A DNA stretch of 64,000 nucleotides. Origin: a phage. The stretch is from sequence record PZ445428.1, one strand, 5' to 3'. Made by a program: the position numbers and the translations under genes. The number at the start of each line of letters is the position of its first letter. Positions within the stretch are counted from its first letter, which is position 1. Shown one piece after another: positions 42,015-51,634 of this stretch. The notes under the pieces are model-generated. The model did not search any database, was not told where the DNA came from, and worked only from the letters and a program-made list of their open reading frames with translations.

Positions 42015-42033
42015 TTATACAGAAAATTTCACT

Positions 42034-42061: not shown

Positions 42062-42075
42062 ATATTCATAAATTC

Positions 42076-42169
42076 GGAAGATTAACCCTAAAGGTAAGGG
42101 AGTTGTTTGCTAAACAACCAGTAGCTGTGGAGACACGGTGTATCAGTTCGAGTCTGGTATCTTCCTCCA
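42076..42169 (+). tRNA. tRNA-Ser (GCT)
   Basis: Acceptor GGAAGAT/ATCTTCC, anticodon loop TTGCTAA, long variable arm, T-arm ATCAG-TTCGAGT-CTGGT, CCA. Confidence 0.8.
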
Positions 42170-42176
42170 AATTCAT

Positions 42177-42254
42177 GGTTCCTTAGCTCAATCAGGTTAG
42201 AGCATTCCCCTCATAAGGGACAGGTTCTCGGATCATACCCGAGAGGAGCCACCA
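42177..42254 (+). tRNA. tRNA with CAT anticodon (Met or Ile2)
   Basis: Acceptor GGTTCCT/AGGAGCC, D-arm GCTC...GAGC, loop CTCATAA, atypical T-loop ATCATAC, CCA. Confidence 0.65.
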
Positions 42255-42271
42255 ATTAACTAGGAGACTTT

Positions 42272-42460
42272 ATGTCTAAATTCCAAGAACTAATGAGAGA
42301 GTTGGGTGAGCATCGCTGCAAGGATTGTTATGGGTCTGGAGAGCAAAACGATGCAGAGCCTGGAGATACTCGATTCAATAAGTGGACTTGTCCTACCTGC
42401 GAAGGTACAGGTATCAACCCTCTTTACACTATTTCTATCTACGTGGGAATTGCTAAATAA
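42272..42460 (+). CDS. zinc-ribbon small protein
   Basis: CKDCYGSG...CPTCEGTG; 62 aa. Confidence 0.45.
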   Translation: MSKFQELMRELGEHRCKDCYGSGEQNDAEPGDTRFNKWTCPTCEGTGINPLYTISIYVGIAK

Positions 42461-42798
42461 TGGATATTTTTACTACTCCAGCAGTCAACCTTTTAGGTGT
42501 AGGTCTGTTCCAAGCTACCATCTATCGTACTGATGATTCTACTGATGTGGTAATGTTCATCGTACCTGAATTCTTCCTAGAAAAGTTCTTTGAAGAGTTT
42601 GAGCAGTTCCGTGAAGAACATAATGCTCACTCCGATATGGAAGATCTAGCAGCTATGTTCCCTGCAGTTTACGGCTATATCTTTGAAAGTAATGGTCTGG
42701 ATCTTAATAAATCTGAGCTGGTCGAACTTAATTGGGGAATTAGTTTTGAAGTTGGCTCTCCATTCCCCCGATACTTCCAGGGTTTAGAGATCCGCTAA
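42460..42798 (+). CDS. hypothetical protein
   Basis: 112-aa ORF. Confidence 0.5.
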   Translation: MDIFTTPAVNLLGVGLFQATIYRTDDSTDVVMFIVPEFFLEKFFEEFEQFREEHNAHSDMEDLAAMFPAVYGYIFESNGLDLNKSELVELNWGISFEVGSPFPRYFQGLEIR

Positions 42799-42806
42799 GA
42801 TTACAT

Positions 42807-42883
42807 GGGGGTGTAATCGAATTGGCATAGGTACTGGACTTAAAATTCAGGTTTTGTGGGTTCGAATCCCACCACCCCTACCA
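42807..42883 (+). tRNA. tRNA with TAA anticodon (Leu by anticodon, short variable arm)
   Basis: Acceptor GGGGGTG/CACCCCT, loop CTTAAAA, T-arm GTGGG-TTCGAAT-CCCAC, CCA. Confidence 0.6.
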
Positions 42884-42900
42884 AATAAAAGGAAACTGAT

Positions 42901-43068
42901 ATGTATCAGAGACCGTCACCACCAGCTCGAAGATCAAGAGAAACTCTTTTGATGGAGTTGGCGAAAAACTTCAAGGCTAAACTTGAAGACGATAATTTTA
43001 CTACAGATGAAGATATTGACTTCATTTGCAAACTATTAAAAATGAAATTGGAGAAAAAACATGGCTAA
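42901..43068 (+). CDS. hypothetical small protein (55 aa, not in ORF track)
   Basis: ATG after AAAGGAAA; MYQRPSPPARRSRETLL... Confidence 0.35.
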   Translation: MYQRPSPPARRSRETLLMELAKNFKAKLEDDNFTTDEDIDFICKLLKMKLEKKHG

Positions 43069-43267
43069 TCCAGAAGTAGTTACACAGCGTTTGCTGATTA
43101 AAGGTGTAGTAGCTGAAGCAGGTCTTACCGAAGCTGTTGCAGATTTTCAGGCACAGTTCACAGCTATTCTCACCCAAGCTAAAGAAACTGGTGCGGAGGA
43201 GTATGCTGCTGCAACTCTAGCGCTCACGTTAGCTGGACTTGATCTGGCAGAAGAAGCCGGAGTTTAA
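43061..43267 (+). CDS. hypothetical protein
   Basis: 68-aa ORF. Confidence 0.4.
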   Translation: MANPEVVTQRLLIKGVVAEAGLTEAVADFQAQFTAILTQAKETGAEEYAAATLALTLAGLDLAEEAGV

Positions 43268-43297
43268 CTCCTCCAAGCAGAAATTTTAAAAATGTAC

Positions 43298-43327
43298 TTG
43301 CTTTTTACTTAAGATTTCTGCTATAAT
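43298..43327 (+). promoter_or_regulatory. sigma70 early promoter
   Basis: TTGCTT-18 nt-TATAAT. Confidence 0.55.
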
Positions 43328-43356
43328 AGTTATATAAATTGATGAGAGGAATCAGA

Positions 43357-43632
43357 ATGTCAAAACGTGTTACAGCAACTGGTATTGAAAGCTCAGTATG
43401 TAAATCCTGGGGTGGTTGGGAAGGTGAGATTGAATGGCTTTATTTCTACAATGTAGAACTTCTGCCTGAAATTAAAGCCCACTGTATCGAAGCTGGTATG
43501 TCTCCTGATGCTAAAGCAGATATCGAAATTACTATGACTAAACTAGAAGGTCGTGTAATTACTGTTAGTGATGAAGGTGAAGAGGTCTTCGAACTTCCAT
43601 TCACCTTGAAAGTCACTCCTTCGTTTGATTAA
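43357..43632 (+). CDS. hypothetical protein
   Basis: Start moved to ATG after GAGAGGAATCAGA. Confidence 0.5.
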   Translation: MSKRVTATGIESSVCKSWGGWEGEIEWLYFYNVELLPEIKAHCIEAGMSPDAKADIEITMTKLEGRVITVSDEGEEVFELPFTLKVTPSFD

Positions 43633-43640
43633 CTGATACA

Positions 43641-43679
43641 GCACTGAGCAAGTTCTTTAAAATTTGACTTGCTCAGTGC
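43641..43679 (+). terminator. 12-bp perfect inverted repeat overlapping the next promoter -35
   Basis: GCACTGAGCAAG...CTTGCTCAGTGC; the 3' arm contains the TTGCTC -35 element. Confidence 0.45.
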
Positions 43680-43698
43680 CTTAAAACTTGATATAATA
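43669..43698 (+). promoter_or_regulatory. sigma70 promoter driving a small RNA and tRNAs
   Basis: TTGCTCagtgccttaaaacttgaTATAAT. Confidence 0.55.
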
Positions 43699-43721
43699 GT
43701 TATCTAATTTGGAAAACATAT

Positions 43722-43820
43722 CTGAATGAGAAGTAACTAAGCGAGTTGCTTTGAGGGGTAAGGTCAGGATAGCCTGAAATATTCCACCTTGAGTTTAACC
43801 GACTTACTTTTCATTCAAAT
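43722..43820 (+). ncRNA. candidate about 100-nt structured RNA upstream of tRNA-Tyr
   Basis: Terminal stem GAATGAGAAGTAA...TTACTTTTCATTC enclosing about 75 nt; no ORF. Confidence 0.3.
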
Positions 43821-43902
43821 ATGTTGGATTAGTATCGTAGAGGTAGCGAAGCAGACTGTAAATCTGCCGACTCGGAAGGGTCTCGGGTGGTTCGACTCCA
43901 TC
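43812..43902 (+). tRNA. tRNA-Tyr (GTA)
   Basis: Acceptor GTTGGAT/ATCCAAC, anticodon arm GCAGA-CTGTAAA-TCTGC, long variable arm, CCA. Confidence 0.75.
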
Positions 43903-43921
43903 ATCCAACACCAAATTTAAT

Positions 43922-43996
43922 GCACCTATCGTCTATCGGTTAGGACATCAGGTTTTCAACCTGAGAAGCTCGGTTCGATTCCGTGTGGGTGTACCA
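43922..43996 (+). tRNA. tRNA-Glu (TTC)
   Basis: Acceptor GCACCTA/TGGGTGT, anticodon arm TCAGG-TTTTCAA-CCTGA, CCA. Confidence 0.7.
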
Positions 43997-44003
43997 AATT
44001 AAT

Positions 44004-44080
44004 GTTCTGCTAGACAAACAGGTAAAGTCCCTACCCTTTCAAGGTAGGGTTTGCGGGTTCGATCCCCGCACAGAACGCCA
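44004..44080 (+). tRNA. tRNA with TTC anticodon (second Glu-type)
   Basis: Anticodon arm CTACC-CTTTCAA-GGTAG, T-arm GCGGG-TTCGATC-CCCGC, CCA. Confidence 0.6.
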
Positions 44081-44088
44081 TATTCTGC

Positions 44089-44165
44089 ATTCCTAGAGTG
44101 TTACTGGACAGCATGTCGGTCTCCAAAACCGTACGGTCTAGGTTCGAGTCCTAGTAGGTTTGCCA
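44089..44165 (+). tRNA. tRNA-Trp (CCA), acceptor stem with U-U mismatches
   Basis: Anticodon loop CTCCAAA, T-arm CTAGG-TTCGAGT-CCTAG, CCA. Confidence 0.55.
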
Positions 44166-44171
44166 ATATTT

Positions 44172-44246
44172 GCACCTTTAGCTGAGATGGATTAGCGCTT
44201 GCCTGAAGAGCTTGAGAGGTTGGATCGTTACCAACGGGGTGCACCA
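44172..44246 (+). tRNA. tRNA-Phe (GAA)
   Basis: Acceptor GCACCTT/GGGGTGC, D-arm GCTG...TAGC, loop CTGAAGA, CCA. Confidence 0.6.
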
Positions 44247-44263
44247 ATTTGAAGGAGATGCTG

Positions 44264-44536
44264 ATGCATCCTGAAAACTTCTTTATATACTGTACTAGTC
44301 CTTTGCTTAAACGCCGGATTAATAAAGTATATCACTACAGAGCTAGTCAACAGCCTTATATTTATGATTCTAGTGGAGATCACATTCCACTTGAGCAACT
44401 AGGGACTGATTATATGGTTTTGAAGCACTTTAATGAGGCAAAGATCTCAAGCGTTCATAACCGACAAAACTCTAAAACGTGGTGGTATAAGAAGCGTAAG
44501 AAAGGCATCAAATTTCTGAAAAATGTAGTTGCTTAA
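44264..44536 (+). CDS. hypothetical protein
   Basis: Start moved to ATG 6 nt after AAGGAG; the track start is TTG. Confidence 0.45.
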   Translation: MHPENFFIYCTSPLLKRRINKVYHYRASQQPYIYDSSGDHIPLEQLGTDYMVLKHFNEAKISSVHNRQNSKTWWYKKRKKGIKFLKNVVA

Positions 44537-44585
44537 ATCCTTAAAGTTCTGTATAATTATTACATAAATTGAACTGGAGAACTAG

Positions 44586-44774
44586 ATGAAAGCACCTAAA
44601 CCGAAATTAGTTAAGTTCGACTGCTGTGACACTGAAATCTTATTTACTAAGTTTGGTGAATTTAAGATGTGTGAATGTGGAACATGTGGTTACGATCATG
44701 GTGATGGATATTATTGCAGAACCCTCGGGCCTTCTGAACTAATCCACTTCTCATGGCCGGAAAGTAAAGAATAA
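44586..44774 (+). CDS. Cys-rich small protein
   Basis: FDCCDTE...CECGTCGYDHGDGYYC; 62 aa. Confidence 0.45.
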   Translation: MKAPKPKLVKFDCCDTEILFTKFGEFKMCECGTCGYDHGDGYYCRTLGPSELIHFSWPESKE

Positions 44775-44776
44775 TA

Positions 44777-44852
44777 CGACCGTTGGCTGAATGGCTTAGG
44801 CGGGGGCCTGCAAAACCTCCTTATGTGAGTTCGAATCTCATGCGGTCGTCCA
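44777..44852 (+). tRNA. tRNA-Cys (GCA)
   Basis: Acceptor CGACCGT/GCGGTCG, loop CTGCAAA, T-arm GTGAG-TTCGAAT-CTCAT, CCA. Confidence 0.65.
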
Positions 44853-44859
44853 AATTTAT

Positions 44860-44942
44860 GGGTCGTTAGCCAAGCGGTTTGGCGGTGGACTGTTAATCCA
44901 TGTCGAAAGACAACGTAGGTTCGAATCCTGCACGGCCCGCCA
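44860..44942 (+). tRNA. tRNA with GTT anticodon (Asn) and extended variable arm
   Basis: Anticodon arm GTGGA-CTGTTAA-TCCAT, extra arm GTCGAAAGAC, T-arm GTAGG-TTCGAAT-CCTGC, CCA. Confidence 0.6.
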
Positions 44943-44970
44943 TTTTTCACTAAAAACTGAGGAAATAGAT

Positions 44971-45156
44971 ATGACAACTCATGCAATTGCTCGACTAGAA
45001 GCTGATCGCGATAGTATTAAGAACAATATTAAAGTTCGTGATCAAATCATTAAGGTTTTAAAGGCAGAACTGCTTGAAGAACTTCAACATCAAGTAGATC
45101 GTCGTGAGTCTTTAAAAGAAGTCGAGGAAGCTCTGTCTAAACTCAAAGCTGAATAA
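44971..45156 (+). CDS. hypothetical coiled-coil protein
   Basis: 61-aa ORF. Confidence 0.4.
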   Translation: MTTHAIARLEADRDSIKNNIKVRDQIIKVLKAELLEELQHQVDRRESLKEVEEALSKLKAE

Positions 45157-45165
45157 ACAAATTAT

Positions 45166-45242
45166 GCGATCGGGGCTGGCTTGGTAATGGTACTCCCCTG
45201 TCACGGGAGAGAATGTGGGTTCGAATCCCATCGGTCGCGCCA
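45166..45242 (+). tRNA. tRNA-Asp (GTC)
   Basis: Acceptor GCGATCG/CGGTCGC, anticodon arm CTCCC-CTGTCAC-GGGAG, CCA. Confidence 0.8.
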
Positions 45243-45248
45243 AATTAT

Positions 45249-45324
45249 ACATCCATAGCTCAATGGTTAGAGCTACCGCCTCTTAAGCGGAGGGTTCTAG
45301 GTTCAAGTCCTAGTGGGTGTACCA
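45249..45324 (+). tRNA. tRNA-Lys (CTT)
   Basis: Acceptor ACATCCA/TGGGTGT, D-arm GCTC...GAGC, loop CTCTTAA, T-arm CTAGG-TTCAAGT-CCTAG, CCA. Confidence 0.65.
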
Positions 45325-45329
45325 AATAC

Positions 45330-45668
45330 TGGGGTCTTAGCTAATCGGTTAAGCGTCATGGATAGCGGTGAATTCCGGCCTATGAAGGGAGTAACACGTA
45401 GTCTCCCAGACTCCACCAAATTTCAGTGCAGAACACGGAGCTAGCAATTCGGAAGTGCTGACGCGCGATAAGCTGCCTATGTACTTGCAAAGCGGACGTG
45501 TCCTAGACTCGGACTCTTGCACTGAAACCAATTAAACATTCTAGCGTGGTGGAGAGGGGACACCAGCTTGCCGAGGGTAGAAGCTCGTTCGATTCGAGTG
45601 AAAGAATGGTTCTCGTAAATCCGCACAAGTGATAGTAGGTTCAAGTCCTGCCTAGATTGACTTATTAT
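45330..45668 (+). ncRNA. cluster of tRNA-like / structured RNA elements, non-canonical
   Basis: Acceptor-like stems with encoded CCA (GGGGTCT...AGACTCCACCA; TTCAGTG...CACTGAAACCA) and T-arm-like motifs, but no canonical cloverleaf by hand folding. Confidence 0.35.
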
Positions 45669-45742
45669 GCGTCCATAGTTAAAAGGTATAATTTCTGGTT
45701 GCCAACCAGATGTTGAGAGTTCGATTCTCTCTGGCCGCACCA
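45669..45742 (+). tRNA. tRNA-Gly (GCC)
   Basis: Anticodon arm TCTGG-TTGCCAA-CCAGA, T-arm GAGAG-TTCGATT-CTCTC, CCA. Confidence 0.75.
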
Positions 45743-46050
45743 AATTTAGGTTTATGCTTCCTAGAGAACGTACTCCTAAATAAACAAGGCGATGAGTTTC
45801 CGGCCGGTTCTAGTCGCTGAAAATCCTCCCGACCAGGTAGGTGTAGGTAAACGAAAGTTTACTTATTAAGTAAGTCCGACACATCGGCGGGTGTGTTCTA
45901 GTATTTAAAGAAGGTCTCGCAAACTTTCTCGCTAGCATGAGTTCATAGCTCGGTGACTTACCTAATAAGTAAATTTATTAAAAATGTAATTGCTATTTAG
46001 CTTAATTCTCTGTATAATATATTTTATAAAGTGATGAGAAGGAAAGCAAA

Positions 46051-46209
46051 GTGAAATTAAAAATTGCAGATGTACTTATGTGTACTTGGGTAATTCCAAT
46101 CATAATTGTTGGTTTTAACGCAGATATACTTTCCACAGCGTGGAAGATTGTAGGGCTAAGTACAGGGTTCACAATGCTAGGGTTAAGCATGTTGTGGACG
46201 AAAAACTAA
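46051..46209 (+). CDS. hypothetical small hydrophobic peptide (GTG start)
   Basis: 52 codons after promoter and GAGAAGGAAAG; not in ORF track. Confidence 0.3.
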   Translation: MKLKIADVLMCTWVIPIIIVGFNADILSTAWKIVGLSTGFTMLGLSMLWTKN

Positions 46210-46213
46210 TATT

Positions 46214-46290
46214 CTCCGATTAGCTCAATTGGCTAGAGTACACCGTTTGGGGTGGTGGGGTTGAAGGTTCGAGTCCTTCATTGGAGACCA
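46214..46290 (+). tRNA. tRNA-Pro (TGG)
   Basis: Acceptor CTCCGAT/ATTGGAG, anticodon arm CACCG-TTTGGGG-TGGTG, T-arm GAAGG-TTCGAGT-CCTTC, CCA. Confidence 0.8.
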
Positions 46291-46305
46291 AATAAGAGGT
46301 TAATA

Positions 46306-46458
46306 ATGCGTCATTTAAATAGGCAAAAAACAAAAGCACCTAAAAGGTTTAAGACTTGGTGCGGTTGTGATAGAGAACTCGTTTCTCTAGGAGAGAAATG
46401 TTCTGTTTGTGGTGTACGCTTTGTTAAGTTCAAACAAAGATTTAAATTTGCGAGTTAG
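46306..46458 (+). CDS. zinc-ribbon small protein
   Basis: 50 aa, CGCDRE...CSVCG; its 3' end overlaps the 5' end of the next tRNA. Confidence 0.35.
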   Translation: MRHLNRQKTKAPKRFKTWCGCDRELVSLGEKCSVCGVRFVKFKQRFKFAS

Positions 46459-46526
46459 ATCTCTGGTAGAGATCACTAGTCTCATAAGCTAGTAAGAGGT
46501 CGGTTCGATTCCGACACTCGCATCCA
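46449..46526 (+). tRNA. tRNA with CAT anticodon (Met or Ile2)
   Basis: Acceptor TGCGAGT/ACTCGCA, D-arm GATC...GATC, anticodon arm CTAGT-CTCATAA-GCTAG, CCA. Confidence 0.75.
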
Positions 46527-46537
46527 AAAAGTATTAA

Positions 46538-46615
46538 GGGTTGCTAGCTCAACTGGTTTAGAGCACTGGTCTTTTAAACCATAGGTTACAGGTTCGAGTC
46601 CTGTGCAACCCACCA
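46538..46615 (+). tRNA. tRNA-Lys (TTT)
   Basis: Acceptor GGGTTGC/GCAACCC, loop CTTTTAA, T-arm ACAGG-TTCGAGT-CCTGT, CCA. Confidence 0.75.
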
Positions 46616-46619
46616 AATT

Positions 46620-46693
46620 GCTCGGTTAGTTTAATGGGAGAACCCCGTCTTTACACGGCGGTTGCGATAGTTCGATTCTATCACCGAGTACCA
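46620..46693 (+). tRNA. tRNA-Val (TAC)
   Basis: Anticodon arm CCGTC-TTTACAC-GGCGG, T-arm GATAG-TTCGATT-CTATC, CCA. Confidence 0.7.
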
Positions 46694-46717
46694 CTTAACT
46701 AAAATAAGGAATTGCAA

Positions 46718-47077
46718 ATGCAATTATCATCTAAAGTTCAAGGTTTCTTCACACATGCAACAGCAGAATTTGCTATTAGCAAGGGTTGGGACTTTGAGCA
46801 AGAACTTTCTGAGTTCTATAAAGATATAGATATGAATACACCATACATGGCCTTAGCTTCTGGACAAGAGTTCTCAGAAGGTGATCTTTTCAAGGCAAGT
46901 CAAGGCGAGGTAACGCCTGGTTTTGCCGCTTTTTGGAGTGGCTTCACAATTAAAGAAGAAGCTCCAGATGATGATGTATTTATGCAAAGCATGCACTCTG
47001 GGAGTTCTGATATGTTATTCGTTAAAGATGTACGACATATCCAAGAAGTGGTAAAAACGTATTTGCAAAATGCTTAA
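46718..47077 (+). CDS. hypothetical protein
   Basis: Start moved to ATG 7 nt after TAAGGA. Confidence 0.5.
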   Translation: MQLSSKVQGFFTHATAEFAISKGWDFEQELSEFYKDIDMNTPYMALASGQEFSEGDLFKASQGEVTPGFAAFWSGFTIKEEAPDDDVFMQSMHSGSSDMLFVKDVRHIQEVVKTYLQNA

Positions 47078-47331
47078 TTTCTTGTTATAATATTTATATA
47101 AATTGATGGGGAGAAATCCTCATCAAAGTTCACTAAGGTATTAGCTCGACCTAGGACTGGCTGCCACCAAGCACGATCCCTACGACTCGGGAGAAGTTCT
47201 AGATTAGTCCACTAGATTCAGCGGCAACTGAATAGTGTATCGGGTTTGTGAAGAGCGGGTATCCAAGCCTGGCTAATGGCACTGGGTATTACGCACACCG
47301 AGCTAATAGCCTTAGTAAACTTGAAGAATTT

Positions 47332-47406
47332 GGGCGAATAGTGTCAGCGGGAGCACACCAGACTTGCAATCTGGTAGGGAGGGTTCGAGTCCCTCTTTGT
47401 CCACCA
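47332..47406 (+). tRNA. tRNA-Ala (TGC)
   Basis: Acceptor GGGCGAA/TTTGTCC, anticodon arm CCAGA-CTTGCAA-TCTGG, T-arm GAGGG-TTCGAGT-CCCTC, CCA. Confidence 0.75.
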
Positions 47407-47412
47407 AATTTT

Positions 47413-47488
47413 GGGGTCATAGGTTATTTGGTTAAACTTACTGCCTTGCAAGCAGTAGAACTCAGTTCAATTCTGAGTGACTCCACCA
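47413..47488 (+). tRNA. tRNA with TGC anticodon (second Ala-type)
   Basis: Acceptor GGGGTCA/TGACTCC, anticodon arm ACTGC-CTTGCAA-GCAGT, T-arm CTCAG-TTCAATT-CTGAG, CCA. Confidence 0.6.
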
Positions 47489-47507
47489 AACAAATTAAGG
47501 AAATAAT

Positions 47508-47726
47508 ATGGTATTCTTAGCAGCCTCTGTAGTTCTTGCATCTTTAGCGTTAGCTATCTATTTTAGAACTGCTAAAGATTTATCTAAAGAAAAGAAAACT
47601 TTCTTTACTGATTACTCTTGGGGTGCTCCATACGCTATCAATTCTATCAGTCTAGAAGCTATGTTGATAATGGTATTCAGTGGTATAGGTTCTATCGTTG
47701 CTGGATTACTTTTTATTTCTAACTAA
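47508..47726 (+). CDS. hypothetical small membrane protein
   Basis: 72 aa, two hydrophobic segments; AAGGAAA upstream. Confidence 0.45.
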   Translation: MVFLAASVVLASLALAIYFRTAKDLSKEKKTFFTDYSWGAPYAINSISLEAMLIMVFSGIGSIVAGLLFISN

Positions 47727-47733
47727 ACAAAAT

Positions 47734-47814
47734 GGGGATGTGGCGAAATTGGCAGACGCGCTAGATTTAGGTTCTAGTCTTCGGGTGTGGGTTCGAGTCC
47801 CTCCATCCCTACCA
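47734..47814 (+). tRNA. tRNA-Leu (TAG)
   Basis: Acceptor GGGGATG/CATCCCT, anticodon arm CTAGA-TTTAGGT-TCTAG, extended variable arm, CCA. Confidence 0.7.
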
Positions 47815-47834
47815 TTTTAAAATAGGATTAATTA

Positions 47835-47999
47835 ATGTTAAAGATGCCAGTAAAACATATTTGGTTAGCTAGAAATAGGGCTACTAATGAATTTGTCTTT
47901 ATTGATACAGGAATGACATATGATCAACGAATATATGATCTTCTGTATTCCGTGTCTGCTGAAGAAGTACACAAATTAATTCTAAAAGATGCAACATAA
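47835..47999 (+). CDS. hypothetical small protein (54 aa, not in ORF track)
   Basis: ATG after TAGGA; the minus-strand track ORFs here overlap tRNAs and are rejected. Confidence 0.3.
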   Translation: MLKMPVKHIWLARNRATNEFVFIDTGMTYDQRIYDLLYSVSAEEVHKLILKDAT

Positions 48000-48001
48000 T
48001 T

Positions 48002-48094
48002 GGAAGAGCAAATCGACTTGGTGACGAAAACCGCTTGGAAAGTGGCTGACTTGTGAAAGCAGGCTTGAGAGTTCGAATCTCTCTTCTTCCGCCA
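48002..48094 (+). tRNA. class II tRNA, probably Ser (GGA)
   Basis: Acceptor GGAAGAG/TTCTTCC, candidate loop TTGGAAA, long variable arm, T-arm GAGAG-TTCGAAT-CTCTC, CCA; anticodon arm is imperfect. Confidence 0.5.
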
Positions 48095-48101
48095 AACAAT
48101 T

Positions 48102-48191
48102 GGAAGTACGGGCGTAGTGGTATGCAACTAGTCTTGAAAACTAGCCCGCTGTAGCGATATGGTGATGGTTCGACTCCATGTGCTTCCGCCA
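48102..48191 (+). tRNA. tRNA-Ser (TGA)
   Basis: Acceptor GGAAGTA/TGCTTCC, anticodon arm CTAGT-CTTGAAA-ACTAG, long variable arm, CCA. Confidence 0.7.
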
Positions 48192-48196
48192 AATCT

Positions 48197-48327
48197 TGGA
48201 ATATGCCGGAATTGGTAGACGGGACTGCCGAATAGGTTTACTAGGAACATCCACTCCTAGAAATATACCTTAAAAGCGGTTGAGTTAAATGGTCTAACTC
48301 GTGAAGGTTCAAGTCCTTCTATTCCTT
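48197..48327 (+). ncRNA. tRNA-like element, about 131 nt, non-canonical
   Basis: Perfect T-arm GAAGG-TTCAAGT-CCTTC and acceptor-like TGGAATA/TATTCCT, but no CCA and no canonical anticodon arm. Confidence 0.35.
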
Positions 48328-48434
48328 GATACATCAATGGCTCAAAGAGTAACGGTGCACCTTTCTAGAGAATTTCCTGGGCGAGAATCCAGGTGTAATC
48401 AACTAGTCGTTAGTGTGATGAGTTTCGGAGAGCC

Positions 48435-48581
48435 GCCACAATTGAAGATCATTGTCTGTTTGAGTCTACCATTTAGGGTCGTTACTTGTAGCGCCTATCT
48501 GCTAGGTCTAATCACTAGGTAAAGGCATGCAAGCTTCTAGTGTAGAGAGTTCGCTACTCCTCGATGGTTTTCAATTGTGGC
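48435..48581 (+). ncRNA. candidate structured RNA closed by a 12-bp long-range stem
   Basis: GCCACAATTGAA (48435-48446) pairs perfectly with TTCAATTGTGGC (48570-48581); the 3' arm overlaps the tRNA-His 5' end. Confidence 0.3.
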
Positions 48582-48653
48582 TATATCATAATTGGTTAAT
48601 GATCCTGATTGTGAATCAGGCCTATGTGGATTCGAGTTCCACTAGCCACCCCA
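48577..48653 (+). tRNA. tRNA-His (GTG)
   Basis: Acceptor GTGGCTA/TAGCCAC, D-arm TCAT...ATGA, anticodon arm CCTGA-TTGTGAA-TCAGG, CCA. Confidence 0.8.
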
Positions 48654-48659
48654 AATATT

Positions 48660-48734
48660 GCGTCCTTATTTCAACGGAAAGAATGTAAAGCTACGAACTT
48701 TACGATCGGGGTTCGATTCCCTGAGGATGCACCA
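48660..48734 (+). tRNA. tRNA-Arg (ACG)
   Basis: Acceptor GCGTCCT/AGGATGC, anticodon arm TAAAG-CTACGAA-CTTTA, T-arm CGGGG-TTCGATT-CCCTG, CCA. Confidence 0.8.
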
Positions 48735-48758
48735 ATTAACTTAAACAGGAAAATAATA

Positions 48759-48959
48759 ATGGCTGATTTCTGTAAAGAATGCTCTATCGATATGTGGGGC
48801 AAAGATACACAAGATCTTTCTGGTCTTATCACTGAAGCTGAAGTTAAAGAAGGCTATGGTGCTGTAGTAATCTGCGAAGGTTGTGGTATTATCCGTGTTG
48901 ATCATGAAGGCAAACGCCTTGAAGAACCTGAGCCAATCGCAACGGTTCCTGTAGAGTAA
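48759..48959 (+). CDS. zinc-ribbon small protein
   Basis: MADFCKECSID...CEGCG; start moved to ATG after AGGAAA. Confidence 0.45.
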   Translation: MADFCKECSIDMWGKDTQDLSGLITEAEVKEGYGAVVICEGCGIIRVDHEGKRLEEPEPIATVPVE

Positions 48960-48967
48960 CAAATTAT

Positions 48968-49043
48968 TGGGATGTAGATCAATTGGCAGATCGTCGGCCT
49001 CTGACTCCGAAGGTTCCTGGTTCGATCCCAGGCATCCCAGCCA
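48968..49043 (+). tRNA. tRNA-Gln (CTG)
   Basis: Acceptor TGGGATG/CATCCCA, D-arm GATC...GATC, loop CTCTGAC, T-arm CCTGG-TTCGATC-CCAGG, CCA. Confidence 0.7.
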
Positions 49044-49050
49044 AACAATT

Positions 49051-49125
49051 GGAGAATAGTGTAGTGGTTCGCACAACGGCCTTTGACTCCGTTAGTGGTA
49101 GGTTCAATTCCTCCTTCTCCTGCCA
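49051..49125 (+). tRNA. tRNA-Gln (TTG)
   Basis: Acceptor GGAGAAT/TTCTCCT, loop CTTTGAC, T-loop TTCAATT, CCA. Confidence 0.65.
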
Positions 49126-49131
49126 ATTTAT

Positions 49132-49206
49132 GCGTGATTAGTTCAGTGGCTAGAATAACTGGCTTCCAACCAGTAGACACGAGTTCGACTCTCGTATCCC
49201 GCACCA
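49132..49206 (+). tRNA. tRNA-Gly (TCC)
   Basis: Anticodon arm ACTGG-CTTCCAA-CCAGT, T-arm ACGAG-TTCGACT-CTCGT, CCA. Confidence 0.75.
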
Positions 49207-49220
49207 AATAAGGAAACGTT

Positions 49221-49442
49221 ATGCACGTTTTTGAGTTTCGTAATAAAAGCCCCAATAGACGCGTTTTGATTATTGGTGAAACATATCGAGCTTACGAGCA
49301 AGAAGATGGTTCAGTTTTACTAAACGATGAAAAGCAAGGTTATAGCTTTCATCCAGAAGAAACGTATGAAGAGTTTCGTACTAAGTTTCTTTTACCAGAC
49401 TGGCTAGCAGTAGCCGAGCAACGAGAATCCGAAGATGGCTGA
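49221..49442 (+). CDS. hypothetical protein
   Basis: 73-aa ORF after AAGGAAA. Confidence 0.45.
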   Translation: MHVFEFRNKSPNRRVLIIGETYRAYEQEDGSVLLNDEKQGYSFHPEETYEEFRTKFLLPDWLAVAEQRESEDG

Positions 49443-49599
49443 TAACCTGAAACTAAAGGTTGACAAACAGAAGAAACGTGTAGAGATTGAGCTTGGTGAC
49501 GAACGCCTAGCACTATCCTTCGAGTTTCTTCAGCAGTTGGCGATGACAGTAATGTCTGATAAGTCTCCTGTATTTGAAAAAGAAATCCCGTTGAAATGA
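49435..49599 (+). CDS. hypothetical small protein (54 aa, not in ORF track)
   Basis: ATG overlapping the upstream stop; MADNLKLKVDKQKK... Confidence 0.35.
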   Translation: MADNLKLKVDKQKKRVEIELGDERLALSFEFLQQLAMTVMSDKSPVFEKEIPLK

Positions 49600-49609
49600 C
49601 GGGTTTATT

Positions 49610-49684
49610 GCTCCTAAAGCATTGCTGGCGATGCAGTTGCCTTGTAAGCATCTGAACCGGGTTCGATTCCTGGTGGGAGCACCA
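49610..49684 (+). tRNA. tRNA-Thr (TGT)
   Basis: Acceptor GCTCCTA/TGGGAGC, D-arm GCAT...ATGC, loop CTTGTAA, T-arm CCGGG-TTCGATT-CCTGG, CCA. Confidence 0.75.
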
Positions 49685-49758
49685 AATTTAAAAATTCATT
49701 TGCCTTCTCTCTTATTTCTTGTTATAATATTTATATAAATTAATGAGAGGGAAACCAA

Positions 49759-50052
49759 ATGAAACGTTATCTTTCTGTCGTGTTCCAAACTGGTGGTCAG
49801 CGTTATACCTACGAATTTCCAGAGTCTTGGAAAATCAAAGAAGGTGATCAGGTTGTTGTACTGACACCGCGTGAAGGCTTCAAAGTGGTTACGGTTAAAC
49901 AAGTATTTCCTAAAGATCACGAACCATCTAAATCTATTAATTATAAGATGATTCATGGTCTGGTACGAAAAGTACCACGGACGGAAGTTGAAGTAGATAA
50001 AGATGGTGAAGCTAAATACCAGTATACTTCTTACCTAGACGAGATGCGATAA
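49759..50052 (+). CDS. hypothetical protein
   Basis: 97-aa ORF after promoter and GAGAGGGAAACC. Confidence 0.5.
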   Translation: MKRYLSVVFQTGGQRYTYEFPESWKIKEGDQVVVLTPREGFKVVTVKQVFPKDHEPSKSINYKMIHGLVRKVPRTEVEVDKDGEAKYQYTSYLDEMR

Positions 50053-50276
50053 TGAGAATTACCTTTACTGAGAAGATAATATGTAATGGGATTATGATCA
50101 TTACAGCGTGGGAAGGTAAACAATGGTGCAGTATAACGGGTCTTAAAGCAGAAGATCAAACACCAGAAAACATTCTCAAAATAAAACAAAACATGGCAAA
50201 ACATGCTAAACGTCCTGGTGCTCCTAGGAATGGCATACGTTTTGCAGCAAAATGCTCCGATAGTTCAAACGGTTAG
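50052..50276 (+). CDS. hypothetical protein; 3' end overlaps tRNA-Ile
   Basis: 74-aa ORF; last 7 codons overlap the tRNA 5' half. Confidence 0.4.
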   Translation: MRITFTEKIICNGIMIITAWEGKQWCSITGLKAEDQTPENILKIKQNMAKHAKRPGAPRNGIRFAAKCSDSSNG

Positions 50277-50329
50277 AACAGGCGACCGATAATCGTCAAA
50301 TCTTGGTTCGATCCCAAGTTGGAGTACCA
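50254..50329 (+). tRNA. tRNA-Ile (GAT)
   Basis: Acceptor GCTCCGA/TTGGAGT, D-arm GTTC...GAAC, anticodon arm GGCGA-CCGATAA-TCGTC, T-arm CTTGG-TTCGATC-CCAAG, CCA. Confidence 0.75.
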
Positions 50330-50373
50330 AAACAACGGAGAGTCACTACCGTAAGTGTGAAGTTGAAAAATAT

Positions 50374-50449
50374 AGTTAGTTGGCAGATCGGTTATGCACC
50401 TCCTTCATACGGAGCGATCAGAGTGGTTCGATTCCACTACTAACTACCA
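50374..50449 (+). tRNA. tRNA with CAT anticodon (third CAT tRNA)
   Basis: Acceptor AGTTAGT/ACTAACT, loop TTCATAC, T-arm AGTGG-TTCGATT-CCACT, CCA. Confidence 0.7.
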
Positions 50450-50818
50450 AACAGAAGATCAGGCCATAGTGCCAGATCCTGCTGAGAAGAGAGTCCACAT
50501 TCTATAAATGGACGGGCGTGACAGCAGGAAGTAGACTGCAACTCGATGCTATCTAAGAGTATAAATGTAGAAGCTAAGACTTTAGATAGTCATTGTCTTA
50601 GCGTGAGTAATCACGTAGTTGCAACAGACCAGGAAGATCGCAACGTTAAAATCAAAGCTCCTGTGCTTTTCTTCTTAATCGAGACCATCAATCTCACCGG
50701 AATGCTAGCACCCCAACAGTAGCTAGTGATTAAGAGAAAAGCAAACCTGCCTTCCAGTTTTTATCTTGCTTCTGGGTTATCAAAAAGCTGAGCCAATTTC
50801 TAACATCAGGGAGATCTA

Positions 50819-51187
50819 ATGAAAGCATATCAAAGTCTTAAATCCGGCGTAATTAACCTTGTTCATGACAATCAGATCATTCAGCTATACTCTAAAGACG
50901 GCGAACTTAAACAGAAAGTTCTAGTTGAAGATCTAGAAGGTATCACACCTCACTTTGATCCTGAAGCCTTCCGCATCGTGGATGTTAAAGTAGTTCCTCA
51001 AGTCGAGGGTGGTCAACACCTAAATGTCAACGTATTAAGTCGTGATCAGCTTTTGGATGCTCAGAAACATCCTGAAAAATATCCTCAGTTGACCATTCGT
51101 GTCTCTGGTTATGCTGTTCGATTTAATGCACTGACGCGTGAACAACAGAACGACGTTATTAGTCGTACATTTACTCAGGCGATCTAA
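50819..51187 (+). CDS. grcA: autonomous glycyl-radical cofactor (GrcA/YfiD-like)
   Basis: [12 protein letters not shown]...[37 protein letters not shown] is near-identical in pattern to E. coli GrcA, including the RVSGY glycyl-radical motif. Confidence 0.8.
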
Positions 51188-51268
51188 TGGGGTTTGGATA
51201 CGATTTCTCCCAGCTACGCAAGGTAGTCGAGCAAACTCCATTTATCTCCGAAGTTTTAGGAGAACTTA

Positions 51269-51568
51269 GTGGACAGAGCATTAAGACGTCACCACCGTCA
51301 ACGTGTCAAGAACAATCGCAAGAAGTATTGGACAGTCTTCCCTCATGAAGAAAGTCCTAAACGGTTAGGTATTATTACTACCACTCCTTGTATTTGCTCT
51401 TGCTGGATGTGTGGCAACCCACGCAAATACTATAAAAATAGTAAAGCAGCAATGAAAATCTCGGAGATTAAAAAGATGGATTCAGGATATAATGAAATCA
51501 CGTTTACAGGTGGTATCTCTGATGAGTTCGATGGTTTTGTATCACAAGACGTTATCGAAATTATCTAA
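51269..51568 (+). CDS. minimal radical-SAM activase, NrdG-like
   Basis: GTG start; FPHEESPKRLGIITTTPCICSCWMCGNP carries a CxxxCxxC cluster and aligns with the NrdG N-terminus; TFTGGISDEF resembles the SGGDP region. Confidence 0.5.
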   Translation: MDRALRRHHRQRVKNNRKKYWTVFPHEESPKRLGIITTTPCICSCWMCGNPRKYYKNSKAAMKISEIKKMDSGYNEITFTGGISDEFDGFVSQDVIEII

Positions 51569-51634
51569 TTAAATAACAAACCCCGGCTATTGAATAAGTA
51601 GTTGGGGTTTTCTTATATACACAGGATTTTCAAA

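What the first reader, a model, noticed from the sequence alone, without database searches (positions are those of the whole stretch)
50450..50818. Structured ORF-free leader upstream of the grcA-like gene
About 370 nt between the last tRNA and grcA contain several 8-bp perfect stems (TCCTGCTG...CAGCAGGA; GCTAAGAC...GTCTTAGC) and no ORF. It may be a regulatory 5' leader, for example oxygen- or metabolite-responsive, or another stable RNA.
Basis: seen in the sequence. Interest (0 to 1): 0.4.

Follow-up and report, generated by a model that had tools for sequence, protein, structure and literature searches.

The report
Conserved structured RNA after phage tRNAs
The stretch between the last tRNA and the grcA-like gene of this T5-like phage encodes a roughly 300-base, multi-hairpin non-coding RNA that several genera of T5-like phages keep whatever gene follows it, so it is not a grcA switch but an unclassified RNA that databases often mislabel as a small protein.

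Summary
The window is Escherichia phage TrudiGerster (BASEL Bas27, Demerecviridae, Epseptimavirus). Both quoted 8-bp stems are at the stated coordinates. Perfect 8-mer stems are enriched: 6 seeds against 0.73 expected, reached by 4 of 1000 shuffles.

"No ORF" is literally wrong. A 58-aa ORF (50546-50722) is annotated in GenBank, but it shows no coding signature (variable columns by codon position 8:14:16, against 5:1:26 for grcA) and is lost in relatives.

Comparison of 18 relatives supports about a dozen helices on the + strand:
- 89% of cells are paired, against 29-40% in slid controls.
- 22 pairs changed on both sides, against 2-7.
- One hairpin loop is always GNRA.
- There is an entangled pseudoknot module, and self-folding inserts occur at one site.

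Parts of the element recur in Serratia, Klebsiella and Pectobacterium T5-like phages, always in the tRNA cluster. There it lies upstream of unrelated genes, two of which have their own promoter. Two Epseptimaviruses keep it but lack grcA. T5 itself lacks it. Rfam 15 has no match.

Verdict: a real, unclassified, modular structured RNA co-transcribed with the tRNAs, resembling the stable RNAs annotated in the T5 tRNA region. It is not a grcA-specific sensor. Its function is unknown. Interest is moderate.

The parts
49700..49728 (+). Promoter-like site (TTGCCT-17-TATAAT, TG-extended) that probably drives the unit: 2 small ORFs, tRNA-Ile, tRNA-Met, the element, grcA. Context, not part of the RNA.
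   Evidence: 10 of 12 matches. The same position is annotated 'putative promoter' in T5 st0 and in AKFV33. No other + strand promoter-like site lies between 50293 and the grcA start.
50374..50449 (+). tRNA-Met (CAT), the last tRNA. Its 3' processing would create the 5' end of the downstream RNA (inference).
   Evidence: (43.2 bits).
50457..50478 (+). H0: hairpin GATCAGGC / GCCAGATC with one A.A mismatch. It is replaced by another 5' module in STG2, UTK0009, Slocum and Sugarland.
   Evidence: C-G changes to U-A and to G.U. SP76 carries the exact reverse complement (an inversion). AKFV33 has a perfect version.
50477..50529 (+). H1 domain: 8-bp outer helix (50477-84 / 50522-29), a conserved 8x8 internal loop, an apical 5-bp helix (50493-97 / 50509-13) and the conserved loop CAUUCUAUAAA.
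   Evidence: All changes in the outer helix give G.U pairs; S124 has three. That is tolerated only in + strand RNA. Homologous in Slocum.
50530..50536 (+). Conserved junction AGUAGAC, part of GGAAGUAGACUGC.
   Evidence: Invariant in 18 sequences including Slocum and Kamaji.
50537..50623 (+). H2 domain, closed by UGCA / UGCA (50537-40 / 50620-23). The domain is optional and is a hot spot for insertions.
   Evidence: Interior absent in UTK0009, short in Slocum. phiR2-01 has +38 nt and KKP 3953 has +160 nt, both self-folding and at the same site. Klebsiella VAC51 carries an insert resembling the phiR2-01 one just 5' of its H2 module (by eye).
50541..50560 (+). Hairpin 'ii': ACUCG / AGAGU (ACUCC / GGAGU in most relatives). 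Its loop holds the 5' strand of H2b.
   Evidence: the closing pair is C-G in most, U-A in S124 and A-U in DU_PP_V.
50548..50590 (+). H2b: GCUAUC (50548-53) pairs with GAUAGU (50585-90). This is a pseudoknot with hairpin ii and H2c, or an alternative fold.
   Evidence: GCUAUC / GAUAGC becomes GCCGUC / GACGGU in Sugarland and VAC51 (two double changes).
50573..50602 (+).
   Evidence: A-U changes to G.U and G-C in Spoonbill, Sw2 and SP76; GCUAGGGC / GCCCUAGC in DU_PP_V.
50602..50615 (+). H2d: 5-bp hairpin capped by a GNRA tetraloop (GUAA here, at 50607-50610).
   Evidence: the loop is GUAA, GCAA, GCGA, GAAA or GAGA in different phages, always GNRA. The stem has a completely different sequence in DU_PP_V (GUUUGG / CCAGAC).
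50630..50663 (+). H3: 5-6-bp helix (CAGGAA / CUCCUG) enclosing the 22-nt loop GAUCGCAACGUUAAAAUCAAAG (50636-50657).
   Evidence: CAGGA / UCCUG, CUGGAA / UUCCAG, CAGGAG / CUCCUG, and CCCUAGA / UCUAGGG in Slocum. The loop is invariant in the first ten relatives aligned; UTK0009 changes two bases and Slocum and DU_PP_V have recognisable versions. The loop sequence occurs only once in the window.
50665..50742 (+). H4: 15-bp closing stem (50665-80 / 50728-42) on a three-way junction. H4b is 50681-50695 (loop CCAUCAA) and H4c is 50704-50727.
   Evidence: 11 of the 15 closing pairs show changes on both sides. Two sequence variants are each self-complementary. The H4b loop CYAUCAA is kept in AKFV33, Slocum, Sugarland and DU_PP_V. 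z = -3.1.
50742..50750 (+). CAARCCUGS motif at the 3' edge of H4. In other genera a terminal hairpin follows it (UUCG-capped in Sugarland and DU_PP_V).
   Evidence: Epseptimavirus, Sugarland, VAC51, DU_PP_V; for the hairpins that follow.
50743..50818 (+). 3' block: conserved but unstructured spacer with the grcA Shine-Dalgarno sequence (GGGAG, 50809-50813). About 97% identical even in Tequintavirus AKFV33.
   Evidence: The fold of 50743-50850 gives z = +1.79, with 196 of 200 shuffles folding at least as well.
50546..50722 (+). 58-aa ORF annotated as a hypothetical protein. Judged spurious: it is an open frame running through the RNA.

Best explanation
Window 50450 to about 50750 encodes a non-coding, multi-domain structured RNA on the + strand (hairpins H0, H1, H2 with a pseudoknotted core, H3 and H4).

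Shown:
- The helices are kept by compensatory and G.U changes.
- One loop is always GNRA.
- Whole hairpin domains are inserted, deleted or swapped without loss of self-complementarity.
- The 58-aa ORF shows no sign of coding selection.
- Recognisable versions sit in the tRNA clusters of Epseptimavirus, Sugarlandvirus, Serratia Slocum-like and Pectobacterium Hongcheonvirus phages, upstream of at least five unrelated genes.

Inferred:
- It is transcribed from the early-type promoter at 49700-49728 as part of the tRNA-Ile/tRNA-Met precursor.
- tRNA 3' processing frees its 5' end.
- Its compact fold lets it persist as a stable RNA or RNP. This would make it the counterpart of the stable RNAs (RNA I, III, IV, 1, 2, 2H) annotated in the T5 tRNA region.
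- Its invariant loops (GAUCGCAACGUUAAAAUCAAAG and CYAUCAA) would be the contact surfaces for an unknown protein or RNA partner.
- In this phage no promoter or terminator separates it from grcA. It is therefore also the physical 5' end of the processed grcA mRNA and may protect that end from 5'-end-dependent decay, while the unstructured last 70 nt leave the ribosome-binding site open.

It is dispensable: phage T5 lacks it.
For: Identity and context: the window is 100% identical to MZ501108. All neighbouring genes and tRNAs are on the + strand.

Structure: on an 18-sequence alignment, 89.2% of cells are paired, against 29-40% when partners are slid. 22 pairs changed on both sides, against 2-7. 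The covariation score is 0.202 against 0.018-0.061, and 0 of 500 shuffles reach the observed values. There are 47 G.U cells against 19 A.C cells.

Cross-genus compensatory changes occur in hairpin ii, H2b and H2c. H2d keeps a GNRA-capped hairpin (five loop variants) on a stem of different sequence in DU_PP_V.

Modularity: domains are deleted, inserted or replaced.

Not coding.

Homology across genera: nhmmer with the alignment profile gives Slocum E=1.5e-50, Sugarland 1.6e-15 and AKFV33 1.2e-13, and DU_PP_V 3.3e-14, collinear from H2 to H4b. BLAST finds 149 full-length records and 78 Klebsiella phage records for the Sugarland form.

Independence from grcA.

Precedent: misc_RNA features in T5 st0 (AY692264), with homologues elsewhere in this window.
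Against: - There is no expression, 5'/3'-end or stability data. That the RNA accumulates on its own is inference by analogy.
- It has no sequence similarity to any annotated T5 stable RNA. It also shows no evident 5'/3' terminal 'acceptor-like' stem such as those RNAs have (read by eye).
- Modules occur separately or in a different order: H0+H4 alone in AKFV33, and H2 next to an RNA1-like element in Sugarland. It may therefore be several small units rather than one RNA.
- Many sequences are closely related, so the cell counts overstate the number of independent events.
- H2b, hairpin ii and H2c cannot all be drawn without pseudoknots. The short linker between H2b and H2c (4 nt, or 1 nt if H2b is extended) is tight for a classical coaxial pseudoknot, so some may be alternative folds.
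- T5 does without the element, so any function is accessory.
Confidence: 0.6

Rival explanations
1. A purely cis-acting processing and insulation cassette. The hairpins would be RNase III/RNase E processing sites and protective end-structures that separate the tRNA precursor from the downstream mRNA, like the intercistronic RNase III hairpins of T7 early mRNA. There would be no trans-acting product.
For: It always sits at the junction between tRNAs or small ORFs and the next gene. H1 (8-bp stem, 8x8 internal loop, 5-bp stem) and H4 (15-bp stem) have the shape of phage RNase III sites (own knowledge of T7). H0 lies 7 nt after the tRNA, and about 12 nt after the orf057 stop codon in beppo and AKFV33. 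In other genera the element ends in a stable hairpin (UUCG-capped in Sugarland and DU_PP_V).
Against: Simple processing hairpins do not need invariant 22-nt loops, a GNRA-capped hairpin, an entangled pseudoknot module and peripheral inserts conserved across genera. T5 and many Tequintaviruses process the same junction without H1-H3.
Confidence: 0.2
2. One reading: a cis-regulatory 5' leader (riboswitch, thermometer or redox-responsive structure) controlling grcA.
For: In TrudiGerster it lies directly upstream of grcA with no promoter or terminator between them. It is highly structured. A 9-nt perfect complement links 50575-83 to grcA codons 5-7 (I3).
Against: The element is retained without grcA in phiR2-01 and UTK0009, and precedes unrelated, separately promoted genes in Slocum and Sugarland. 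T5 grcA has no leader. The ribosome-binding-site region is unstructured, and there is no terminator or sequestering helix. The 9-nt complement is near chance level (about 0.7 expected for a 600-nt region, own estimate). It is also not kept: the H2c strand changes in Spoonbill and SP76 while the grcA sequence stays the same. No Rfam riboswitch or leader family matches at E<=10.
Confidence: 0.07
3. The region encodes a small protein (the 58-aa ORF, phrog_19031), and the stems are incidental.
For: The frame is open with the same ATG in most Epseptimaviruses (58-72 aa). It is annotated in several records and forms a PHROG.
Against: Substitutions are flat across codon positions (8:14:16, against 5:1:26 for grcA). 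No Shine-Dalgarno sequence precedes the ATG (sequence). It is frameshifted, deleted or absent in SenS-3, UTK0009 and Slocum. Annotations are inconsistent and even on the opposite strand. There is no Pfam match. Changes are compensatory in helices rather than synonymous.
Confidence: 0.04
4. The H2 module (about 60 nt, order A B A' C B' C') is a small self-cleaving ribozyme that helps process the tRNA-operon transcript. The rest of the element would be scaffold.
For: It has a hairpin whose 6-nt loop segment pairs with a downstream strand, inside a second helix. All three helices covary across genera. The size and the entangled topology recall pistol-type ribozymes (own knowledge). The module occurs autonomously in Sugarland and DU_PP_V.
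Against: Neither the Rfam Pistol model nor any other ribozyme model matches, even at E<=10 on the isolated region. The hairpin that pistol nests inside its second helix is outside it here. UTK0009 and Slocum lack the module. There is no biochemical evidence.
Confidence: 0.07
5. A DNA-level element: inverted repeats serving recombination, replication or protein binding.
For: One hairpin (H0) is found inverted in SP76, a DNA-level event. Modules are shuffled between genomes.
Against: G.U pairs outnumber A.C pairs 47:19, and the H1 outer helix changes almost only to G.U (17 G.U cells, 6 unpaired). Both point to one transcribed strand. GNRA loop conservation has no meaning in duplex DNA.
Confidence: 0.03

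Closest known systems
Stable low-molecular-weight RNAs of the phage T5 tRNA region (RNA I, RNA III, RNA IV, RNA1, rna2, RNA2H; misc_RNA features of GenBank AY692264)
   Same: They are non-coding, lie among the tRNA genes on the same strand and are presumably cut from tRNA precursor transcripts. Their function is unknown. This window carries homologues of several of them elsewhere.
   Different: There is no sequence similarity to any of them. The element is absent from T5. It is larger (about 300 nt against 103-172 nt) and multi-domain. It shows no evident paired 5'/3' terminal stem. Its accumulation as an RNA is untested.
Large ornate phage-associated RNAs (ROOL, GOLLD)
   Same: They are multi-domain RNAs with GNRA loops, pseudoknots and variable peripheral domains, often next to tRNA genes in phage genomes, and of unknown function (own knowledge; see also bioRxiv 10.1101/2024.12.08.627333, listed).
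   Different: No Rfam hit to either. This element is about half their size or less, and occurs in enterobacterial T5-like phages.
Pistol self-cleaving ribozyme (Rfam RF02679)
   Same: The H2 module has a hairpin whose loop forms a 6-bp pseudoknot with a strand lying inside a second helix. This architecture is recalled from memory, not tested against the family alignment.
   Different: There is no covariance-model match at E<=10. The third hairpin is not nested. The conserved nucleotides were not checked. No cleavage data exist.
Intercistronic RNase III processing hairpins of T7-like early transcripts
   Same: These are irregular hairpins with an internal loop, placed between cistrons of a phage early transcript (own knowledge). 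H1 and H4 have that shape.
   Different: This element is far more elaborate and has sequence-invariant loops. No cleavage evidence exists.
Riboswitch or leader RNAs upstream of glycyl-radical or pfl-type genes (e.g. the ZTP 'pfl' motif)
   Same: A structured RNA directly upstream of a PFL-family gene in this phage.
   Different: There is no Rfam match, no expression platform, and the linkage to grcA is not conserved.

Membership tests
Any Rfam 15 family (4227 covariance models) | Match to a family covariance model | tested here: not met
   There is no hit inside 50450-50818 in the 19-kb scan. On the isolated 411 nt at E<=10 the only hit is a minus-strand Flavi_CRE match of 14.6 bits against a gathering score of 42. 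The Slocum, STG2, UTK0009, Sugarland and KKP 3953 versions also give none.
T5 tRNA-region stable RNAs | Sequence homology to an annotated T5 stable RNA | tested here: not met
   BLAST of the six T5 misc_RNAs places them at other window sites. nhmmer with the element profile finds nothing in 13 kb of the T5 tRNA region. Element queries find no paralogue in window 35001-50440.
T5 tRNA-region stable RNAs | Encoded within the tRNA gene cluster, on the same strand as the tRNAs, non-coding | tested here: met
   position; non-coding.
T5 tRNA-region stable RNAs | Accumulates as a discrete stable RNA in infected cells | not testable with these tools
   Needs Northern blot or RNA-seq of infected cells.
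Conserved structured functional RNA (generic) | Base pairs maintained by compensatory change beyond controls | tested here: met
   observed against shuffles and slid partners; cross-genus changes in the H2 helices.
Conserved structured functional RNA (generic) | RNA-specific motifs: a GNRA tetraloop kept as a class, and G.U tolerated on one strand only | tested here: met
   (GUAA, GCAA, GCGA, GAAA, GAGA). (47 G.U against 19 A.C). One search, helix 2 (changes almost only to G.U).
Cis-regulatory leader or riboswitch of grcA | Conserved linkage to the regulated gene | tested here: not met
   Downstream genes include non-Gly_radical proteins, a DksA/TraR zinc finger and hypothetical proteins. Separate promoters follow the element in Slocum and Sugarland.
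Cis-regulatory leader or riboswitch of grcA | Expression platform (intrinsic terminator, or a helix sequestering the ribosome-binding site) | tested here: not met
   There is no terminator-like site between 49603 and 51578 on the + strand. The ribosome-binding-site region folds worse than shuffles.
Cis-regulatory leader or riboswitch of grcA | Ligand- or condition-dependent switching | not testable with these tools
   Needs reporter or in-line probing assays.
Protein-coding gene (58-aa ORF) | Excess of third-codon-position variation, and a conserved reading frame | tested here: not met
   8:14:16 against 5:1:26 for grcA. The frame is lost in SenS-3, UTK0009 and Slocum.
tRNA / tmRNA | Cloverleaf or tRNA-like domain detectable by ARAGORN or the Rfam tRNA and tmRNA models | tested here: not met
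Pistol ribozyme | Hairpin loop forming a roughly 6-bp pseudoknot with a downstream strand enclosed by a second helix | tested here: met
   (hairpin ii, H2b, H2c). The definition of the family is recalled from memory.
Pistol ribozyme | Match to RF02679, including the nested third hairpin and the conserved core | tested here: not met
   The H2d hairpin lies outside H2c.
Pistol ribozyme | Self-cleavage | not testable with these tools
   Needs an in-vitro transcription and cleavage assay.

The most novel reading that the evidence does not exclude
The element is the founding example of a new class of multi-domain non-coding RNA of T5-like phages, with an active role. Two versions are open: either its pseudoknotted H2 core is a new self-cleaving or otherwise catalytic fold, or the RNA acts in trans as a decoy or sponge for a host factor or defence system. 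The second would fit the tRNA region of T5-like phages being an 'anti-defence island' (bioRxiv 10.1101/2023.03.15.532788).
Probability: 0.15. Interest if true: 0.8.

Novelty: new member of a known kind. Interest (0 to 1): 0.5.

Why it matters
T5-like phages are model systems. TrudiGerster is Bas27 of the BASEL collection, and the tRNA region of T5-like phages is currently studied as an anti-defence island. Three practical points follow from this finding:
- A conserved RNA of about 300 nt with a defined architecture is hidden under inconsistent 'hypothetical protein' annotations in a couple of hundred genomes. This is a correctable annotation error.
- It is a candidate for Rfam.
- It is a tractable, dispensable locus for asking what the long-known but unexplained stable RNAs of phage tRNA clusters do.

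The finding also removes a tempting but wrong idea, that phage grcA is under riboswitch-like control.

Tried and rejected
- Rfam at gathering-free thresholds on the region and on five variant loci gave nothing.
- ARAGORN found no tmRNA or tRNA in the region.
- Homology to the T5 stable RNAs was not found by BLAST or nhmmer. Resemblances to RNA2H (GAGAAG...AGUCCAC, CAAGCCUGG) were seen by eye, but the profile searches did not support them.
- An RNase P-like reading (GAGAGUCC / ACAGACC against the conserved regions CR-I and CR-V), a ZTP 'pfl'-motif reading (CGUGAC, GCCUG) and a C/D-box or kink-turn reading of GUGAUGAG...GUGAC were considered by eye and dropped. Rfam gives no hit, and the kink-turn register does not fit.
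- A host origin is unlikely: there is no match in 5,426 complete E. coli genomes.
- No antisense target of the H3 loop exists within the window.
- H4b-type hairpins (stem, CYAUCAA loop, stem) are not recurrent: only one occurs in the window.
- The long-range pairing GG-CGGGC / GCCUGCC proposed by RNAalifold was not adopted. It is almost invariant, competes with H1b, and I found no counterpart in Slocum by eye.
- Exact-pattern scans of IMG/VR (two scans) and of metagenome contigs (one scan) added only copies of known isolates and one contig.
- Vibrio phage pVp-1 (Ermolyevavirinae) has no detectable homologue in record positions 15-64 kb, the stretch scanned.
- The library search found no paper describing the element.
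Full report
**Source and context.** Window 50200-51200 is 100% identical to Escherichia phage TrudiGerster (MZ501108; Demerecviridae, Markadamsvirinae, Epseptimavirus; host E. coli K-12). The finding lies at the downstream end of a cluster of 29 tRNA genes, all on the + strand. It sits between tRNA-Met (50374-50449) and a 122-aa gene (50819-51187) that carries the Pfam glycine-radical domain (PF01228, E=4e-18). The simple consensus scan finds a good sigma-70-type promoter at 49700-49728, the place where T5 and AKFV33 records annotate a promoter. It finds no + strand promoter-like site between 50293 and grcA, and no terminator-like site until 51578-51610. The region is therefore most simply read as part of one transcript: two small ORFs, tRNA-Ile, tRNA-Met, the 369-nt stretch, grcA, small ORFs, terminator. 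That reading is inference from sequence.

**Checking the observation.** Both quoted 8-bp stems exist at the stated places.
- The region has 6 perfect 8-mer stem seeds (five distinct stems), against 0.73 +/- 1.1 in 1000 dinucleotide-preserving shuffles. Only 4 shuffles reach 6.
- The MFE z-score is -2.25 for the + strand, and -2.5, -2.2 and -3.1 for three sub-domains.
- "No ORF" is not literally right. A 58-aa ATG ORF (50546-50722) is listed, annotated in GenBank, and forms a PHROG of unknown function with no Pfam match.

**Is the ORF a gene?** In nine phages that share both loci, the neighbouring grcA varies at codon positions 1:2:3 in 5:1:26 columns, the signature of purifying selection on a protein. 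The ORF varies in 8:14:16 columns. The frame is broken in vB_SenS-3, removed by a deletion in UTK0009 and absent in Slocum. Annotators of relatives call ORFs of other lengths, other frames, the opposite strand, or nothing. No Shine-Dalgarno sequence precedes the ATG. I treat it as an accidental open frame.

**Comparative structure.** BLAST finds the whole stretch in 149 phage records at 76-100% identity. I aligned 18 representatives, including two Serratia phages, and tested a hand-derived structure of 75 pairs in 13 helices.

| Measure | Observed | Partners slid by 1-3 columns |
|---|---|---|
| Cells forming standard pairs | 89.2% | 29-40% |
| Pairs changed on both sides | 22 | 2-7 |
| Covariation score | 0.202 | 0.018-0.061 |

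None of 500 column shuffles reaches the observed values for paired cells, double changes or covariation score. (The count of further pair types did not exceed the shuffles: 41 observed against a mean of 43.5.)

Strand evidence:
- Overall there are 47 G.U against 19 A.C cells.

The sequences are related, so cells are not independent events. The cross-genus comparisons below are the stronger evidence.

**Anatomy in window coordinates.**
- H0: 50457-50478.
- H1: 50477-50529. It has an 8-bp outer helix, a conserved 8x8 internal loop and an apical helix.
- Junction: AGUAGAC, conserved.
- H2 domain: 50537-50623, closed by UGCA / UGCA.
- H3: 50630-50663, with the 22-nt loop GAUCGCAACGUUAAAAUCAAAG. 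The loop is invariant in the first ten relatives aligned; UTK0009 differs at two bases.
- H4: 50665-50742. A 15-bp stem, 11 of whose pairs show double changes, carries two hairpins. One has the loop CCAUCAA.
- 3' block: a conserved spacer up to the grcA start.

Inside H2, three helices are interleaved in the order A B A' C B' C':
- hairpin ii: 50541-45 / 50556-60
- H2b: 50548-53 / 50585-90

H2d, a GNRA-capped hairpin (50602-50615), follows.

**Cross-genus evidence.**

| Helix | Usual form | Variants |
|---|---|---|
| Hairpin ii | ACUCC / GGAGU | ACUCU / AGAGU (S124); ACUCA / UGAGU (Pectobacterium DU_PP_V) |
| H2b | GCUAUC / GAUAGC | GCCGUC / GACGGU (Klebsiella Sugarland, VAC51) |
| H2c | GCUAAGAC / GUCUUAGC | G.U intermediates; GCUAGGGC / GCCCUAGC (DU_PP_V) |
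| H2d loop | GCAA | GUAA, GCGA, GAAA, GAGA (always GNRA); stem unrelated in DU_PP_V |

All three interleaved helices are therefore supported. They form either a double pseudoknot or alternative folds. The linker between the 3' strand of H2b and that of H2c is short (4 nt, or 1 nt if H2b is extended), which is tight for a classical coaxial pseudoknot. I leave this point open.

**Modularity.**
- UTK0009 lacks the whole interior of H2, and Slocum has a short hairpin there.
- Yersinia phiR2-01 has a 38-nt self-folding insert at the 5' edge of the H2 interior. Klebsiella VAC51 has an insert that looks homologous to it, just 5' of its own H2 module. Each contains a GAAA-capped hairpin whose stem covaries (GAAG / CUUC against GAGA / UCUC).
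- KKP 3953 has a 160-nt self-complementary insert at the same place as phiR2-01.
- STG2, UTK0009, Slocum and Sugarland replace H0 by another 5' module that contains its own GNRA-capped hairpins.
- KKP_3822 replaces H1 and H2.
- H4 exists in two sequence variants, each self-complementary.
- Tequintavirus AKFV33 has only orf057, H0, H4 and the 3' block.
- T5 itself has nothing: its tRNA-Met is 13 nt from the grcA homologue.

These points rest. Optional self-folding peripheral domains are typical of structured RNAs and are hard to reconcile with a protein gene.

**Distribution.** A profile of the alignment finds the following.

| Phage | nhmmer E-value |
|---|---|
| Slocum | 1.5e-50 |
| Sugarland | 1.6e-15 |
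| AKFV33 | 1.2e-13 |
| DU_PP_V (Mccorquodalevirinae), collinear from H2 through the H3 loop to the H4b hairpin | 3.3e-14 |

- The Sugarland form occurs in 78 Klebsiella phage records.
- Nothing is found in the T5 tRNA region, in Vibrio phage pVp-1 within the 15-64 kb scanned, or in 5,426 E. coli genomes.
- Exact-pattern scans of IMG/VR and metagenome contigs added only known isolates and one contig.

**Relation to grcA.** The gene after the element differs between phages.

| Phage | Gene after the element |
|---|---|
| TrudiGerster | grcA |
| phiR2-01, UTK0009 | 121-aa protein without a Gly_radical domain |
| Slocum | DksA/TraR-type zinc-finger protein, preceded by its own TTGCAA-17-TATAAT promoter |
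| Sugarland | hypothetical protein, preceded by TTGCTA-17-TATAAT |
| DU_PP_V | another hypothetical protein |

In Slocum, Sugarland and DU_PP_V the element ends with the motif CAAGCCUS and a stable hairpin, UUCG-capped in the latter two. In TrudiGerster the final 70-100 nt, including the Shine-Dalgarno sequence, fold worse than 196 of 200 shuffles. The element is thus gene-independent and shows no expression platform. This argues against an oxygen- or metabolite-responsive grcA leader.

**Comparison with what is known.**
- Rfam 15 has no match in a 19-kb scan, on the isolated 411 nt at E<=10, or on five variant loci.
- The closest known kind is the set of stable RNAs annotated in the tRNA region of T5 st0 (RNA I, III, IV, 1, 2, 2H). 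Homologues of these lie elsewhere in this window. The present element shares their setting but not their sequence.
- The H2 topology recalls the pistol ribozyme as I remember it, but the Rfam model does not match and the third hairpin is not nested.
- H1 and H4 have the shape of T7-type RNase III sites (own knowledge).
- The tRNA region of T5-like phages has been described as an anti-defence island (bioRxiv 10.1101/2023.03.15.532788). That motivates, but does not support, a defence-related role.
- I found no paper describing this element. It may be among the unnamed candidates of large-scale screens such as PMC10690425, which I could not check.

**Most likely mechanism.**
- Shown: this is a conserved, modular, + strand RNA structure. 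It is not coding, is not tied to grcA, and is embedded in the tRNA operon.
- Inferred: it is co-transcribed with tRNA-Ile and tRNA-Met and freed at its 5' end by tRNA processing. It persists through its compact fold as a stable RNA or RNP and presents invariant loops to an unknown partner. In TrudiGerster it also forms the structured 5' end of the grcA message.
- Rivals: a purely cis-acting processing and insulation cassette (0.2), a ribozyme core (0.07), a grcA leader (0.07), a small protein (0.04) and a DNA element (0.03).
- Confidence in the main statement: about 0.6. This reflects high confidence that the RNA structure is real and gene-independent, and low knowledge of its function.

**Verdict.** Interest: 0.5.

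Noticed in passing
window 48195-48438: Homologues of T5 stable RNA1 (48195-48338, 96.5% identical) and of the two ends of RNA I (48339-48358 and 48417-48438). The GenBank record annotates a hypothetical CDS (bas27_0126, window 48337-48522) over the RNA I homologue. This may be another RNA mislabelled as a protein.
   Followed up: partly
window 47063-47312: Homologue of T5 RNA2H (47139-47312), just downstream of a promoter-like TTGCAA...TATAAT and upstream of tRNA-Ala. It contains CAAGCCTGG (47264-47272), the motif that marks the 3' edge of the element in all genera. Profile searches did not support homology between the two RNAs.
   Followed up: partly
window 45537-45661 and 45875-45926: Homologues of T5 'rna2' (88.8% identical, tRNA-like 3' half) and of part of RNA IV.
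   Followed up: no
window 44172-44243, 48002-48090, 48102-48187: tRNA-like Rfam hits that ARAGORN did not report: 33.4 bits to the tRNA model, and 25.4 and 38.3 bits to the tRNA-Sec model. The GenBank record annotates two tRNA-Ser genes at about the positions of the latter two. The cluster therefore holds more than 29 tRNAs.
   Followed up: partly
L014 (Salmonella phage SP76), about 418-437; aligned to window 50458-50477: Hairpin H0 is present as its exact reverse complement (ATCTGGTACAATGACCTGAT against ATCAGGTCATTGTACCAGAT). This is a small inversion across the stem-loop.
   Followed up: partly
L004 1005-1370 (Yersinia phiR2-01); L061 973-1338 (Salmonella UTK0009): These Epseptimaviruses lack grcA. 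The element is followed by a 121-aa protein that resembles the small ORFs 51187-51348 and 51269-51568 of the window joined into one. Those two window ORFs may be a split gene.
   Followed up: partly
L005 1283-1355 (Klebsiella phage Sugarland): An unannotated tRNA (Rfam 39.7 bits; annotated as tRNA-Val in relatives) lies under the annotated CDS gp156. Further downstream an element like T5 RNA1 is embedded between the H2 module and the H4b-like hairpin.
   Followed up: partly
L065 769-1504 (Pectobacterium phage DU_PP_V): A gap of about 740 nt has no annotated feature. It contains an unannotated small ORF with a good ribosome-binding site (about 783-950), then about 550 nt of structured RNA that includes the H2, H3 and H4b homologues and a UUCG-capped terminal hairpin.
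   Followed up: partly
L060 about 560-720 (Salmonella phage KKP 3953); L004 about 690-728; L064 about 545-582: Self-folding inserts occur at the 5' edge of the H2 module: 160 nt in KKP 3953, and a 38-nt GAAA-capped hairpin in phiR2-01 that has a look-alike in Klebsiella VAC51, a different genus.
   Followed up: partly
window 37417-37519: Weak Rfam hits to leader or sRNA families on both strands (anti-hemB 28 bits, Thr_leader 22.9 bits, Leu_leader 20 bits) suggest a terminator-like or attenuator-like structure here.
   Followed up: no
window 50052-50276: A 74-aa ORF (phrog_9814, E=3e-37) runs 23 nt into tRNA-Ile (50254-50329). It is not annotated in the TrudiGerster record, while relatives annotate a shorter version that ends just before the tRNA.
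   Followed up: no
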